Source: Octopus sinensis
Lineage: Eukaryota
DNA: 11,947 nucleotides
Assembly (NCBI RefSeq): GCF_006345805.1
Contig: NW_021826818.1
Span: 1 to 11,947 of the forward strand
Direction: 5' to 3'
How positions within the stretch are numbered: the first letter of the stretch is position 1; every line of letters starts with the position of its first letter. This document shows, in pieces, positions 2,254 through 11,947 of this stretch. Position numbers and translations under genes: made by a program. A model generated the notes under the pieces. That model did no database searches, was not told where the DNA came from, and was given only the letters and a program-made list of their open reading frames with translations.

Positions 2254-2783
2254 TGTTTCTTTATTAGCCACACAGGACTGCACACAGATAGAACAAATTA
2301 CAGGTAGAGCTTTTCTTTTGAAGGTTTTTAAAAAAAAAAAAAAGGAAGGGGGAGTTCGATCAAAAGGTCGTAAAGGAGAGAAAGAGGACAAAAAAAGGGG
2401 GGTTAAAAAAAAGGGGGAGAGGAAAAAAAAAAAAAATTGATCAATAGGGATCGTTATCACAGAAATGTCATATGAAGTGTAAAGGGGAGGACAGGTGAGG
2501 TTTACCCGTGGAAAGAAAGCCTACGGAAAAGACCACGGTAACCTCGGTCAATGGAGTCACATGTTATATTTCTTTTTTTTTTTTTTTTTTTTGCAAATAA
2601 GCAACTCTCTGTTTTTAATTTTTTGGTTCATAGGATCATGCTCAAGGTGGCTTCGTCATTCATACGTGCCATTCTTGCTACATTCACCCATCTTTTTTTA
2701 AAACATTCGCTAGACAAAACTTGCCTCTCTACTCTCACTTTCCTTTTCAAGTGGTACTTGAAGAAGTTGATGAGAGATTGACC

Positions 2784-2784
<1 letters not shown>
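2254..2784 (-). mobile_element. 5'-truncated non-LTR retrotransposon (L1/Tx1-like LINE): ORF2 C-terminus plus 3' UTR
   Basis: A minus-strand open frame (2783-2628) is followed by a pyrimidine-rich 3' UTR ending AATAAAGAAAC and then TATC repeats. The 5' end abuts (TATC)n. The tail is homologous to 2869-2910 and 5177-5218. Confidence 0.7.
2628..2783 (-). pseudogene. LINE ORF2 C-terminal fragment, 51 aa plus stop
   Basis: Manual translation: [51 protein letters not shown]. The basic helix followed by F-x-x-R-W near the C-terminus resembles Tx1-type ORF2 ends. There is no start codon at the 5' end because it is truncated at the GATA repeat. Confidence 0.6.
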
Positions 2785-2868
<84 letters not shown>

Positions 2869-2981
2869 TTTCTTTATTGGTCACACAGGGCTGAACACAG
2901 AGGGGATAAAGATATGTAGATAGATAAATAGATAGATAGATGGATAGATGAATAGATGGATAGACAGATAGATAGATAGAT
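2785..2981. repeat. (GATA)n microsatellite: perfect at 2785-2866, degenerate at 2917-2981
   Basis: Direct reading. Confidence 0.95.
2869..2910 (-). mobile_element. Extremely 5'-truncated LINE/SINE 3' tail (42 bp) inside the GATA array
   Basis: Ungapped hand alignment gives 34/42 identity to 2256-2297 and 34/42 to 5177-5218. Confidence 0.8.
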
Positions 2982-4090
2982 GTTACGTATTGTTTAACAG
3001 TTTTAGCCTTGTCATAACTATAAAACAAAAAACTGTAAACTATAAACTCATACTAACATACACATATACACAGATCAGTCTCTCCCTCTGTACATACAAT
3101 CACACACACACACGTGTATTATTTCTACTTTTAAATTATGTGACATAATTCTCTTTTCTTTCGAGAAGAGTTCAAAATATTATCCCATGTTTAAAACTAG
3201 AAATCTCGAAATTTAGTGTGACTTACACAAATTTCAACACCTCCAGCAACACCACCAAACCGTTCGCGAAAATATACGAACAAATAACATAACACATATC
3301 GAACCTCAGATAATTAACTATCAAAAACCAAACCTCCATTTGAAATAGCTAAGTTACAGAGAAAATAGAAATCTGTAACAATGTAATTTCAAAGCCTATA
3401 TTTTCTTTGTTTATTTAATAAGCTTTATCTTCTTTATAATTTCCTGACTAATAATAGCGTGAATCAGCTTAAATGTATCGATTTAACTATCTCTCGTAAG
3501 CATATTCTTATATGGAATATATATATACATATGTGTGTGTGTGTATGTATATATATATTATATATGCATATGTTATTTTTTAGACTTCTTTTATTTATTT
3601 TTTTTTCGATAGACGTTCAAAGATGCTCTGTTAAGCAACATGTATTTCTGTATTTTCAGGTTGTTTTCTTTCTGCCCGATAATGCATTTGCATGCTGTTC
3701 GATGAACCGTATATTATAGTTATCCGTAAATCAGAACACGAGTACTTACTCACTAAGACAAACATTCACAAAAGCAGTTAGCAAGCAAAATACATGTTTG
3801 TGCGTATGTGTGTGTGTGTAGAATCACACACTTTCGTCTATGCATAACAGACATACATGCATAATGAAAACACAAGATTATATTCTAAAGAAACGCTAAA
3901 CGCGAGTATACGCATGCAAGATTTGCTTACACGTGCTACTAAAAAAAATGAAAATGTGTTACATTGATTTAAGACGTAAAATTTGAATATAGGATACACA
4001 CATACTTCGTAATAAAGTTATCGTCTAAGAAAATTGCATACACAACCTATTTTTCAAAATATAAAATGGTGAACAAGATTGAACACGATC

Positions 4091-4113
4091 TATAGAGAGA
4101 TAGAGAGAGAGAG

Positions 4114-4193
<80 letters not shown>

Positions 4194-4400
4194 GGATGGA
4201 AGGATGGATGAGTGGATGGACGGATGGATGGGTGGATGGACGGATGGATGGATGGAAGGATAGATAGATAGATAGTTCTATTCTATTATTATTCATATAC
4301 ATACATACATACATACATGCATACATACATAAATGCATACATACATACATACATACATACATACATACATACATACATACATACATACATACATGCATGC
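4091..4400. repeat. Compound microsatellite (GA)n-(GATA)n-(GATG)n, then (CATA)n
   Basis: Direct reading; accounts for ORF 4090-4455. Confidence 0.95.
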
Positions 4401-4851
4401 ATGCGACGATATATACACATATTTCCCCTACAGCTTGTAATATGCAACACTCCATTTATTAACTACTGAACATATTATGAACGTTGACAAGTCTGCCTTT
4501 CAACACAGAACATTAACCTATTATAGTCATTAGCTAACCAGATAAAACAACTTGCGATATTTGTTCTGGCATTTTCTCAATAGAAAGTGAGAGAACACCA
4601 TCTTCGGTTTATCAGCTGAAAATTATGTGATAAGGACACTGTACATGTGTTACGGGATACAACGATGTGTGTTCTCTCTGGATCTGATACTGCAGAATAA
4701 TTTTAAAAAAGCATATGTTCAGTATAGAATTTCGAAACGTCCGTCGTGGTTTCAAGTAGTCATTTAGTAGTAAATATTGCTAGATTCAATCCACGGAGGG
4801 AGAATGGCCTTGAAACCGACGATTTTGAACAAACGGAGACAACATACTCAT

Positions 4852-4940
4852 TCTGCCTGAGGAAGCACAGCTTGATAAAACAGTTGTATCAAGTACCAGC
4901 ACTTTTAGGAAACTACTTTGCGTCGAAACAAATGTAGCGA
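4852..4940 (+). ncRNA. Degenerate type I hammerhead-like motif with long stem II (possible Penelope-like remnant)
   Basis: CTGAGGA at 4857-4863; gcacag/ctttgc pairing (4865-4870 with 4916/17-4921, imperfect); internal hairpin cttgata/tatcaag (4871-4893); then GAAA-C-aaat-G-TA (4925-4936). Stem I is weak. Confidence 0.4.
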
Positions 4941-5171
4941 TTAAAAAACAACTGTACCCCTTCTTCTTGTTGAGTATGTGTGTGTATGCATGTGTATACG
5001 TATGTATTTTTATGTATATGTATGAATATATGCATGGATGTGAATATATACATACAATCACATGTAAAAGGATATTTTTGCCTATACATGTTTCAGCAAT
5101 TTGCTATGTGTGTATGTGTGTGTGTTTGTATATATTATACAAACATATTACACGCACACATATTCATATAT

Positions 5172-5410
5172 ATTTATTTCTTTACTACCCACAAGGGGCT
5201 AAACACAGAGGGGACAAACAAGGACAGACATAGGTATTAAGTCGATTACACCGACCCCAGTGCGTAACTGGTACTTTATTTATCGACCCCGAAAGGATGA
5301 AAGGCAAAGTCGACCTCGGCGGAATTTGAACTCAGAACGTAGCGGCAGACGAAATACGGCTAGGCATTTCGCCCGGCGTGCTAACGTTTCTGCCAGCTCA
5401 CCGCCTTCAC
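5172..5410 (-). mobile_element. Full-length tRNA-derived SINE (family A) with LINE-type tail and 11-bp TSD
   Basis: Minus-strand head AGGCGGTGAGCTGGCAGAAACGTTAGC (A-box-like, about 5380-5406) and B box GAGTTCAAATTCC (5333-5321). The central block is GAGGTCGACTTTGCCTTTCATCCTTTCGGGGTCGATAAA and the tail ends GTAAAGAAATAAAT. The direct repeat TATTCATATAT flanks it at 5161-5171 and 5411-5421. Confidence 0.9.
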
Positions 5411-5621
5411 TATTCATATATGATATTGTTCCTTTATTACTGTTTAGTCTACTACAAATGGCATTTTGCTGTCGGGAGCTATTCACATTATTGGCTAGTG
5501 TAAATGTCCATATATTCTAATTTTATTTGATATCTGAATCACTGGTCAACAGGAAATCAATTTTAGTATATCTCACTTTCATCTTTTCTTACGTTTTCTT
5601 ATTTTTCTGTTAATCAAACCA

Positions 5622-5780: not shown

Positions 5781-5810
5781 GTTGTGTCTCGGAAGAGTCA
5801 TTATCTTTTA

Positions 5811-5896
5811 GCTAAGTAACGGGGACATAACACACGGGCATCGGTTGTCAAGCAATGCTAGGGGGACAAACACAGACACAGAAACACACACACACA

Positions 5897-5933
<37 letters not shown>

Positions 5934-6089
5934 GACGGGCTTCTTTCAGTTTCCGTCTACAAAATACTCACAGGCTTTGGTCGGCCGAGGCTGTAGTGGA
6001 AGACACTTGCCCAAGGTGCCACTCGTGGGACTGACCCAGAACCATCTGGGTGTAAACAAGCTACTTACCACACACCCACTCGTGCGCCT
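5811..6089 (-). mobile_element. tRNA-derived SINE (family B) with internal (TA)n/(TG)n tract, 3' end apparently missing
   Basis: Minus-strand head AGGCGCACGAGTGGGTGTGTGGTAAGTAGCTTG, a degenerate B box (TGGGTCAGTCCC) and a CORE-like GCACCTTGGGCAAGTGTCTT. The head is homologous to 8974-9062 and 11441-11518. Confidence 0.8.
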
Positions 6090-6155
6090 ATATTTCCAAG
6101 ATTATCCCAATCATATATTGTCTAAGTTTAAGGAACTATAAATACGTAAGAGCGT

Positions 6156-8973: not shown

Positions 8974-9062
8974 AGCGCTGGTGTAGCTCTATGGAAAACC
9001 GTTTGTTTCCCAACCACATGCTGTCAGGTTCAGTACCGCCGCGTGGTTAACTTGGGAGAAGA
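8974..9062 (+). mobile_element. Diverged 5' fragment of SINE family B
   Basis: gtttgtttcccaaccacatg...ggttcagtacc...gcgtgg...cttggg matches 11451-11510 and the reverse complement of 6000-6089. Confidence 0.65.
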
Positions 9063-9099
9063 TGTTGCTTGTGTAATGAACTTATTATGATATAATTTT

Positions 9100-9300
9100 T
9101 AATTTAGGCACAAGATCAAAAATTTTGAAGGTAGGAGTCAAGTGGATTACACTTATTCCAAAGATTAACTGGTACTACTTATTTTAATTGACCCCAAGAT
9201 GATAAAAGGCAAAAATCATCCACGCTGGTATTTGAACTCAGAACGTGAAGGGCTAGTAGAAAGTGTCTCGGGATTACCAACTCGCCATCATCGCCACCGT
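9100..9300 (-). mobile_element. Diverged copy of SINE family A with an alternative tail
   Basis: taactggtact...ttgacccc...aaaggcaaa...atttgaactcagaacgt matches 5266-5340 in the same orientation. The tail (minus strand) reads CTTGTGCCTAAATT. Confidence 0.75.
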
Positions 9301-9603
9301 TATCGGAATAACAACAATTTTTTCTAACATGGACGGAAGCTAGACATTTTGTAAGGAAGCGCCATCCAGTGAACTCGCCCGCACTTATTCGATGCTAGTT
9401 TACTTCATTAAATTCGAAATTAGCGAAGATAAATGGTTATTTGGATAAAAATTGCAAGGGAGTGTAAAAGATACCGCAAATATTTTAACTGATCGTTCAA
9501 GGATTTCCACCAATATATCAACTTTCTACTAATTTGTAACAGGCACACACTCAGGACCTTGGTGTCGGAAGGTAGCTGCTCTCACACAGTGAAACATGCA
9601 CAA

Positions 9604-9910: not shown

Positions 9911-10007
9911 TGGTAATAATGCATGAATGCATCATCTCAACCTTCAAATGTGTTCTTTTACTTTTAAAATTTAAGGTGCACAACTGACAGAATCTTTATT
10001 ATGAGGG

Positions 10008-10173
10008 GCAAAATACCTACAGGCATTTCGTCCGTCTTCAAATTAACCCAAGGTTGACTTTAGTATTCTCCTATTCAGGGGTCGATAAAATAAGGTACTC
10101 GACGAATCGAGTCCGATGTAATCGACTTCTTCCTATAGGAACATTACTGGGCCTTGTGCCAGAATTTGAAACC
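10008..10173 (+). mobile_element. Diverged copy of SINE family A with the alternative tail
   Basis: atttcgtc...ttcaaatt...aggttgacttt...ggggtcgataaaataaggtac...gatgtaatcgactt matches the reverse complement of 5239-5360. The tail reads ggccttgtgccagaatttgaaacc. Confidence 0.75.
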
Positions 10174-10269
10174 CATATTTGCAACGTCTAAACTTTTAAA
10201 TATGTAAAGAATGCCAGAAGCAAACGTCTAATTTCTCAGTGATAACCTGGAAATAAACAGTATGCCCGT

Positions 10270-10738: not shown

Positions 10739-10818
10739 GCGGGATGGGGTTTAGGATGCTTGTGCATATATTATATATATATATATATATTATATATATA
10801 TATATCAGATTATATATA
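10675..10818. repeat. (TA)n microsatellites
   Basis: Direct reading; two tracts separated by about 30 bp. Confidence 0.9.
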
Positions 10819-10869
10819 CAGGAGTTGGACAAAATAATGTAAACACCTTAAAATTTCAAACAAATTTAT

Positions 10870-11010
10870 AATAATACGTGGTAGGACCGCTTTGCTGGTA
10901 ACTACACCTGGAATTCTACGAGGTATGGAATCGTACAAATTTGCATTGATTCCAAAGGAAATTTTGTCCATTCTTCATCTAAAACAGTCTCCAGTTCTTG
11001 CAGTGATGAT
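10870..11010 (-). pseudogene. Frameshifted Tc1-family transposase C-terminus
   Basis: SSLQELETVLDEEWTKFPLESMQ, frameshift, LYDSIPRRIPGVVTSK, frameshift, GPTTY. This matches the canonical Tc1 C-terminal pattern L...EEW..I....L..S.P.R..AV...GG.T.Y. Confidence 0.88.
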
Positions 11011-11357: not shown

Positions 11358-11440
11358 ATTTAAAATTTTATAGATATTTCAAAATTATGATGCTATGATG
11401 GTAGGTGTTTCCATTATTTTGTCCAGCTCCTGTATATATA

Positions 11441-11518
11441 CGTGGTAAGAAGCTTGCTTCCCAACCACATAGTTCTGGGTTCAGTCCCATTACCTGTCAC
11501 ATTGGGCAGGTATCTTCC
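11441..11518 (+). mobile_element. Head fragment of SINE family B
   Basis: gtggtaagaagcttgcttcccaaccacatagttctGGGTTCAGTCCC...ttgggcaggtatctt carries a B-box-like motif and is homologous to the reverse complement of 6000-6072. Confidence 0.8.
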
Positions 11519-11664
11519 GCCCATTAGAGTTAATTCCTAGAATTTTAACGGTTTTTCGTAGGGTCTGTTACCATTAATAGCCGACGAGAATGTAATGTCG
11601 CTTTGACATTCGGAACTCTGAGTATTATAATGGCAACCTTTTACTGTCTGTTCTAATTTATAAC

Positions 11665-11700: not shown

Positions 11701-11733
<33 letters not shown>
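11665..11733. repeat. (CATA)n/(TA)n microsatellite
   Basis: Direct reading. Confidence 0.85.
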
Positions 11734-11947
11734 AAAATCTGTCTTGTCTGTCTGTTTCCAAGGATCTCGGGCATCCTCCATCCGATTGCGCTCAAATTTG
11801 ATATGTAGATACCGACGGTATTAGGGTGTGTATAAGTCTTGAAAAAATTACAAAATTCGATTCCAGGTGAGAATGCGATCGACAAACATTCTTTGGAATA
11901 GAAAAAAAATCTCTCTTTATTTCTTCTTTTGCTGGTGTTTCAAATAT
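11725..11947 (+). mobile_element. 5' portion of a second putative non-autonomous Helitron-like element, possibly running off the window
   Basis: TATATAAAA is followed by a GTCT tract and then ATCTCGG...CCGATTGCGCTCAAATTTG, the same 5' layout as the 1488-1849 element and as insect Lep1/DINE-like elements. No 5' TC or 3' hairpin-CTAG is visible. Confidence 0.5.

What the first reader, a model, noticed from the sequence alone, without database searches (positions are those of the whole stretch)
2256..5218. SINE and LINE share a 42-nt 3' tail: a candidate partner pair in one window
Seen: 2256-2297 (LINE end), 2869-2910 (orphan tail) and 5177-5218 (SINE end) align without gaps at 34/42 (LINE-orphan), 34/42 (orphan-SINE) and 32/42 (LINE-SINE). 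All are on the minus strand and end A(A/G)TAAAGAAA. Established: SINEs borrow LINE 3' tails for recognition by the LINE RT, mostly documented for CR1/L2/RTE clades. Inference: if the LINE is L1/Tx1-like, this is a less common stringent-type partnership.
Basis: partly seen in the sequence, partly recalled or inferred. Interest (0 to 1): 0.75.

Follow-up and report, generated by a model that had tools for sequence, protein, structure and literature searches.

The report
Octopus SINE carries a Tx1-type tail
A very abundant short jumping repeat in this animal genome (likely an octopus) ends in the same poly(A)-less, predicted hairpin tail as a whole group of L1/Tx1-like long jumping genes, and it likely borrows the copying enzyme of one of them, though probably not that of the microsatellite-seeking copy lying next to it.

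Summary
The three 42-nt tails are real (34, 34 and 32 of 42; next best in the window 24). The LINE is a 5'-truncated copy of a 6-kb L1/Tx1-like family (A) that sits in (TATC)n; the 'orphan' is the tail of a sister LINE subfamily. The tail belongs to a whole radiation: 116 of 136 LINE ends picked by protein carry a U-rich tract, a predicted hairpin and AAUAAAG, none with poly(A); hairpin halves change together across families 56-93% alike in ORF2. The SINE (41,817 exact tail matches) has a 65-nt version of this tail and 10-21-bp target duplications like the sister families. Family A is probably not the partner: its tail is among the poorest matches, and none of 117 SINE copies is followed by TATC repeats, against 25 of 30 A copies. 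No sampled family matches the whole SINE tail, so the donor is unidentified; nothing was assayed and Tx1 membership was not tested against named elements. Co-location in the window is chance. I found no animal L1/Tx1 tail-sharing pair in the papers searched; the scan itself noted this system many times on other DNA.

The parts
2256..2788 (-). 5'-truncated copy of L1/Tx1-like LINE family A: last ~52 codons of ORF2, 3' UTR and tail; (TATC)n on its 5' side, short TATC run on its 3' side
   Evidence: 40 scored genome copies 94-96% identical over query 3-535; copies extend 5' into RT and endonuclease, one full-length ~6.1 kb copy
2628..2786 (-). C-terminus of ORF2 with its stop codon (2628-2630)
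   Evidence: ORF list; same C-terminus in long copies; coordinates
2256..2297 (-). family-A tail: predicted lower stem, AGCC/GGCU-type hairpin (one change in this copy), AAUAAAGAAA
2784..2866 (.). (ATAG)n/(TATC)n array, the landing site shared by the A copy and the orphan tail
   Evidence: TRF, 20.8 copies; junction survey
2869..2910 (-). 'orphan': extremely 5'-truncated tail of sister LINE subfamily B, TATC-type repeats on both sides
   Evidence: 264 exact matches of its core pattern; 30 of 30 loci read have LINE-type 3' UTR upstream, none the SINE body
5175..5409 (-). full-length SINE, about 235 nt
   Evidence: 40 scored copies 94-97% identical; consensus of 30 copies
5385..5397 (-). A-box-like motif of the SINE head (pattern match only)
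5321..5333 (-). B-box-like motif of the SINE head (pattern match only)
5175..5239 (-). LINE-type tail of the SINE: U-rich tract (like families D and J), predicted lower stem 5203-5209 with 5179-5185, hairpin 5187-5199 (like families C, H, F)
   Evidence: 5' border set by where older SINE copies switch to another tail
5161..5171 (.). target-site duplication of the SINE, 3' copy (11 bp)
5411..5421 (.). target-site duplication of the SINE, 5' copy (11 bp)

Best explanation
The SINE ends in a 65-nt segment homologous to the poly(A)-less 3' end shared by a radiation of L1/Tx1-like LINEs in this genome, and it is likely copied by the ORF2 protein of one of those families, which would recognise a predicted two-tier stem-loop in that tail; the partner is likely a sister family (C/H/F-like or D-like) rather than the (TATC)n-seeking family A seen in the window. 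Shown: shared tail at family level, fixed 3' end just after AAUAAAG with no poly(A), matching changes in the two hairpin halves across families, 10-21-bp target duplications in the SINE and 13-23 bp in sister families, TATC preference of A and not of the SINE. Inferred: the RNA folds this way, ORF2 binds it and starts target-primed reverse transcription a few bases downstream, and the SINE got the tail by template switching, replacing an older tail.
For: Tail in 30 of 30 A copies and 30 of 30 SINE copies. 116 of 136 distinct LINE ends chosen by protein alone carry the motif, 5 of 136 opposite-strand control windows do, and 0 of the 116 have a run of 10 A. The families form one clade (100/100) at 56-93% ORF2 identity. 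In 32 family representatives, 20 have an upper hairpin of at least 4 Watson-Crick pairs (shuffled mean 8.1, maximum 16 in 2000 rounds; halves swapped between families 17.7% of 992), with stems such as AGCC/GGCU, GCCC/GGGU, ACCU/AGGU, GAUU/AAUC, GAUC/GAUC; mean folding energy -4.75 against -2.91 kcal/mol for permuted partners, 0 of 1000 permutations as low. SINE duplications of at least 8 bp in 20 of 26 non-tandem copies, 24 of 144 mismatched controls; C 5 of 13 copies with 16-23 bp, D 3 of 5 with 13-19 bp, J 3 of 3 with 15-19 bp, and in C and D they mostly begin right after the same terminus as in the SINE. The terminal 24 nt of several C copies equal a common SINE variant. Against A as partner: local score to the SINE tail 40-51 of 130 for the A copies shown, 60-74 for the best B, H, O, C, D copies; A has TATC at 25 of 30 3' junctions and 19 of 21 readable 5' junctions (two pairs of these are one locus or duplicates); 0 of 117 SINE 3' junctions.
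Against: No sampled family matches the whole SINE tail: best 74 of 130, and five patterns aimed at a closer donor returned only SINE variants, stray A/B-type copies, a known D copy or heads of SINEs (78/80). RNAalifold found no consensus structure on the MAFFT alignment of 30 tails (the stems are out of register). The lower stem is 93.9% paired but shows no two-sided change, so it is explained by sequence conservation alone. The three window copies fold no better than shuffles (z 0.0, 0.4, 1.2). A first hairpin test with badly anchored windows was weak (25 of 32 against mean 18.3, maximum 25). The 32 representatives were hand-picked from 60 clusters, leaving out ends with no recognisable tail, and are related to each other. 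AAUAAA with upstream UGUA-like motifs is also an ordinary polyadenylation signal (own knowledge). SINE landing sites begin with bases that follow the tail in tandem copies, so RNA-target pairing may steer insertion, which weakens the target-site argument against A. No assay.
Confidence: 0.68

Rival explanations
1. The tail is mainly a 3'-end processing cassette (AAUAAA plus upstream U/UGUA elements); these LINEs recognise RNA loosely, and the SINE simply inherited the cassette and is moved by any of them.
For: AAUAAA is the best conserved part; lower stem has no covariation; no alignment-level consensus fold; hairpin sequence differs widely between families, which a strict reader would not tolerate across families.
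Against: No poly(A) in 116 ends and a fixed end only 3-6 nt after the hexamer, shorter than the usual 10-30 nt cleavage distance (own knowledge); 87 of 132 SINE copies have AGUAAA instead; hairpin halves match within families.
Confidence: 0.13
2. Family A (or its sister B) is the direct partner; the SINE lands elsewhere because the landing site is set by pairing of the RNA 3' end with the target, not by the endonuclease.
For: B matches the SINE consensus at about 38 of 42 without gaps; SINE landing sites look microhomology-driven; a few A copies lie outside TATC.
Against: 0 of 117 SINE copies at TATC; A/B have a different hairpin register and loop and lack the SINE's upstream tract; sampled A copies are younger (96-98% pairwise, biased sample) than background SINE copies (median 92.3% to consensus, n=30); target choice is said to rest mainly on the endonuclease (PMC4494074, passage).
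Confidence: 0.12
3. The SINE picked up a Tx1-like end once but is moved by an unrelated LINE (CR1, RTE, Dong).
For: Those clades are abundant and active in Octopus vulgaris (PMC13282606, Table 1); no exact donor found.
Against: The SINE ends at the same base as the C and D families and leaves the same size of duplication; its younger tail replaced older tails, which fits selection for the new partner.
Confidence: 0.05
4. Chance similarity, or a SINE tail inserted next to the LINE at this locus.
For: The stretch is short and U-rich.
Against: Background maximum 24/42; tail present family-wide.
Confidence: 0.02

Closest known systems
Stringent L1-clade pairs: maize/sorghum ZmSINE2 and ZmSINE3 with LINE1-1_ZM; Chlamydomonas SINEX-3_CR with L1-1_CR (Ohshima 2012, PMC3472496, part 1 of 3 read; Ohshima 2013, PMC3747384, passages and Table 1 read)
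   Same: L1-clade LINE lineage with a conserved last ~45 nt, a hairpin with compensatory changes, and SINEs that share it.
   Different: [quoted passage not shown] Here the LINEs have no poly(A), many are target-specific, and the tail is kept across families only 56-62% alike.
SINEU with Tx1-Mar in crocodilians (Kojima 2015, PMC4494074; passages and part 3 of 5 read)
   Same: A SINE thought to be mobilised by Tx1-clade LINEs.
   Different: That link rests on a shared target and shared U1/U2-derived heads; SINEU has poly(A) tails and the passages seen report no shared 3' tail. Here the link is the 3' tail.
Kibi (TC)n, Koshi (TTC)n and crocodilian (TTCC)n/(TTTC)n Tx1 families (as described in PMC4494074)
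   Same: L1-group LINE with microsatellite on both sides of truncated copies.
   Different: Target is (TATC)n/(GATA)n, not listed in the passages read; one search for it returned 0 papers. Relationship to Kibi/Koshi not tested.
Stringent L2/CR1/Nimb pairs: zebrafish ZfL2, eel UnaL2 (PMC4176376, passages); bivalve SINEs (PMC11481361, section 13; PMC4824008, passages)
   Same: 35-61-nt shared tails at 72-95% identity, stem-loop read by ORF2, tail swapping on a constant SINE body.
   Different: Partners are L2, CR1, CR1-Zenon and Nimb, not L1/Tx1; recognition was shown by assay for ZfL2 and UnaL2, not here.

Membership tests
L1 group (APE-type non-LTR retrotransposon) | ORF2 with APE endonuclease, RT and C-terminal zinc-binding domain; upstream ORF1 | tested here: met
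   PF03372, PF00078, PF13966 over cut-off; ORF1 with a CCHC knuckle read in L063 (no Pfam match)
L1 group (APE-type non-LTR retrotransposon) | RT closer to L1 than to other clades | tested here: inconclusive
   Human L1 151 bits against R2 70 bits, but the library holds no CR1, L2, RTE or Tx1 protein; zf-RVT supports L1 group (own knowledge)
Tx1 clade | RT phylogeny groups with named Tx1 elements (Tx1L, Keno, Kibi, Koshi) | not testable with these tools
   Homologues returned are unnamed or 'hypothetical'; trees hold no named reference
Tx1 clade | Frequent target-sequence preference | tested here: met
   A in (TATC)n; J at one site of another SINE; F and G at fixed sites
tRNA-derived SINE | Under 700 nt, non-coding, high copy, target duplications | tested here: met
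   235 nt, 41,817 exact tail matches, duplications in 20 of 26
tRNA-derived SINE | tRNA-related head with A and B boxes | tested here: inconclusive
   Box-like motifs by pattern; ARAGORN and Rfam negative
tRNA-derived SINE | Pol III transcription | not testable with these tools
   no suitable RNA data
Stringent SINE/LINE pair | SINE and LINE share the 3'-terminal sequence at family level | tested here: met
   met for the LINE group, not for one identified family over the whole tail
Stringent SINE/LINE pair | Conserved stem-loop with compensatory changes | tested here: inconclusive
   Upper hairpin supported; lower stem no covariation; RNAalifold none
Stringent SINE/LINE pair | Overlapping activity periods | tested here: inconclusive
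   Small biased samples: SINE median 92.3% to consensus; A 97.5%, C 91.4% (71-98), D 83.7% pairwise
Stringent SINE/LINE pair | Tail required for retrotransposition | not testable with these tools
   needs an assay
Direct partnership of family A with the SINE | Same target site and closest tail | tested here: not met

The most novel reading that the evidence does not exclude
An animal L1/Tx1 radiation that never relaxed to poly(A) recognition: all families select RNA by a two-tier stem-loop while diversifying their DNA targets, and the genome's dominant SINE survived by successive tail swaps, the latest a mosaic tail (tract of one branch, hairpin of another) that lets it ride several families at once. 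This would give a testable animal model for the ancestral stringent state of L1.
Probability: 0.35. Interest if true: 0.72.

Novelty: new variant of a known kind. Interest (0 to 1): 0.5.

Why it matters
Ohshima (PMC3472496, PMC3747384) proposed that L1-clade elements were ancestrally stringent and relaxed in parallel in mammals and plants, with only plant and algal examples. A poly(A)-less animal L1/Tx1 group with intact ORF2 frames (1126-1140 aa), natural hairpin variants and a passenger SINE makes this testable by tail-swap assays. It would also name the likely engine behind one of the large SINE expansions of octopus genomes. The phenomenon itself (SINEs borrowing LINE tails) is textbook, and the specific pair proposed for this window is probably wrong.

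Tried and rejected
Search for a LINE carrying the SINE's exact tail: five pattern designs and about 190 LINE loci found by protein; none found. A degenerate copy (L435/L436) is close in the last 37 nt but holds only 177 alignable codons. The lead from earlier notes, a LINE that inserts into this SINE itself, was tested at two self-insertion sites: all 60 loci were SINEs and none of the 30 loci had ORF2 nearby; the SINE-targeting family I did find (J) lands in a different SINE. L216 was fetched on the wrong side and refetched as L405. One search was mis-anchored and replaced. RNAalifold gave no structure. Named Tx1 references could not be obtained. Sequencing runs: no RNA holder listed. 'TX1' in PMC4176376 is a mutant-protein label, not the clade. 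Co-location in the window rejected as evidence: 41,817 exact 33-nt tail matches alone give one per 65 kb, and diverged copies are several times more (inference). Literature searches. Not seen: Ohshima and Okada 1994 (octopus OK/OR1/OR2 SINEs), Kojima and Fujiwara 2004, Repbase, Dfam, SINEBase entries, and the supplementary repeat libraries of the octopus papers, any of which may already hold this SINE or this pairing.

Full report
Observation. The three tails align as stated: 34/42, 34/42 and 32/42, against a best background of 24/42 in the window. The window is a whole small contig of a 2.7-Gb genome. The host is likely an octopus: the closest named ORF2 relative is from Argonauta hians (66% identity); this is inference.

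The LINE. 2256-2788 matches 40 scored copies at 94-96% (2,732 candidates). Copies are 5'-truncated at varied points; one is full length, about 6.1 kb, with an ORF1 bearing a CCHC knuckle and an ORF2 with endonuclease, RT and zf-RVT domains. The best solved relative is human L1 ORF2 (151 bits; R2 70). All 30 copies read end in the tail. This family (A) has TATC repeats after 25 of 30 3' ends and before 19 of 21 readable 5' truncation points (L009/L013 are one locus and L021/L022 look duplicated), so the repeat is a target, not a tail. Tx1 membership is a working label: no named Tx1 sequence was available.

The orphan. Its core pattern has 264 exact matches. All 30 loci read have LINE-type 3' UTR upstream and none the SINE body; 13 of 30 have the ORF2 C-terminus within 1.5 kb, in at least one case from a neighbouring copy. 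It is the stub of sister subfamily B in the same TATC array.

The tail is group-wide. Searches by protein (zf-RVT; a divergent C-terminus) and fetched stretches gave 136 distinct LINE ends; 116 carry a U-rich tract, a TCTATGT-like motif, 12-31 nt, then an ATAAAGA-like motif; 5 of 136 control windows do; none has poly(A) (the 20 misses were not all inspected, some are visibly interrupted). Twelve long ORF2 frames are 56-93% identical and form one clade at 100/100 with two outside proteins; C, H, F and M group together, D with J, and A with N (quick tree, no named outgroup).

Structure. In 32 hand-picked representatives (from 60 clusters of 145 rows) the middle forms a hairpin whose stem differs between families yet stays paired: 20 of 32 have four or more Watson-Crick pairs, against 8.1 in shuffles and 17.7% in swapped halves; native folds are 1.8 kcal/mol better than permuted partners, 0 of 1000. 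The flanking motifs can pair as a lower stem (93.9% of cells) but show no two-sided change, RNAalifold on the plain alignment finds nothing, and the window's own copies fold no better than shuffles. The structure is predicted, with fair support for the upper hairpin only.

The SINE. 5175-5409 is a full copy with an 11-bp duplication. Its 33-nt tail pattern has 41,817 exact matches. Duplications of 8 bp or more were found in 20 of 26 non-tandem copies (8-26, mostly 10-21; control 24 of 144; several lie in AT repeats). Sister LINEs leave 13-23 bp (C 5 of 13, D 3 of 5, J 3 of 3), in C and D mostly starting right after the same terminus. The three variable positions of the SINE tail among 132 copies all keep the predicted pairing, which is compatible but weak, as most transitions would. 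Older copies of the same body (median 82-83% identity against 93%) carry other tails with a reversed stem around the same CUUGU loop; two such copies lie in the window. The border between body and tail is therefore at 5240, and the tail is about 65 nt.

Which partner. The SINE's upstream tract matches D and J, its hairpin and end match C, H and F; scores out of 130 are 74, 72, 70 (D types), 67 (C), 65 (O), 62 (H), 60 (B), 59 (J) and 40-51 (A). None of 117 SINE ends is followed by TATC repeats. Sampled A copies look younger than the bulk of the SINE (biased samples). Targeted searches for a closer donor failed. One caution: SINE landing sites often begin with the bases that follow the tail in tandem arrays, so RNA-target pairing may help choose sites, which leaves some room for A or B.

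Mechanism. Most likely (0.68) a Pol III SINE transcript mimics the 3' stem-loop, is bound in trans by ORF2 of a C/H/F- or D-like family, and is inserted by target-primed reverse transcription starting at a fixed point just after AAUAAAG. The homology, end point and duplications are shown; folding, binding, Pol III transcription and the donor are inferred, by analogy with ZfL2 and UnaL2 (PMC4176376, passages).

Literature. Ohshima's survey found three SINEs with L1 tails among 58 pairs, in maize and Chlamydomonas (PMC3472496 part 1 of 3; PMC3747384 passages and Table 1). Crocodilian SINEU is tied to Tx1-Mar by target and head (PMC4494074 passages and part 3 of 5). Bivalve partners are CR1, CR1-Zenon, L2 and Nimb (PMC11481361 passages and section 13; PMC4824008 passages). 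Octopus annotations list L1-Tx1 families and tRNA-Core/tRNA-Deu SINEs, with no pairing in what I read (PMC13282606 part 1 of 3 and passages; PMC8967140 passages). Passages of PMC4758252, PMC3531059, PMC5804259 and PMC5786205 add none. Nine searches did not show an animal L1/Tx1 tail-sharing pair; Repbase, Dfam, the 1994 octopus SINE paper and supplements were not seen. Earlier notes of this scan report the same system in this and other genomes; they are not independent support.

Verdict. Real feature, new variant of a known kind; right at the level of the LINE group, probably wrong for the particular pair. Interest 0.5.

Noticed in passing
window 2784-2866; L002-L030, L061-L068: Family A and B copies stack head-to-tail in (TATC)n arrays; this microsatellite target is not among the Tx1 targets in the passages read.
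   Followed up: yes
L301-L303, L224-L226, L242, L243, L406, L409-L414: Family J (97-99% pairwise, one 1137-aa ORF2) inserts at one site in the head of the other abundant SINE, with 15-19-bp duplications.
   Followed up: partly
L119 about 2225 onward (same as L183): One K-type copy ends directly before what reads as the first base of a U1 snRNA gene (identified from recall, not by a tool).
   Followed up: no
window about 9130-9306 (minus) and 9981-10181 (plus): Older copies of the same SINE body with different tails; in other loci these tails show a GGC/GCC stem around a CUUGU loop and often end in ATT repeats: tail swapping over time.
   Followed up: partly
L034, L041, L051, L058, L066, L267, L340, L342; G000 C1 8970298-8971448: The SINE forms tandem chains of head-less units (restart near position 52) and also inserts into its own head near position 18.
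   Followed up: partly
window about 5800-6090 (minus), 8990-9070 and 11440-11520 (plus): Pieces of the second abundant SINE family (the target of family J), read by eye.
   Followed up: no
L166, L168, L169, L418-L422 (F); L120-L125 (G); L115, L199, L205 (D): Families F, G and some D subfamilies each end before their own fixed downstream sequence, so further specific targets exist.
   Followed up: no
window about 1475-1860 and 11730-11900: Short GC-richer repeats with a CTAG-type end and inverted-repeat look, possibly Helitron-like fragments; read by eye only.
   Followed up: no
window about 10815-10990 and 11360-11435: Matching inverted ends around an ATA array and a further repeat, possibly a Tc1/mariner-type non-autonomous element; read by eye only.
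   Followed up: no
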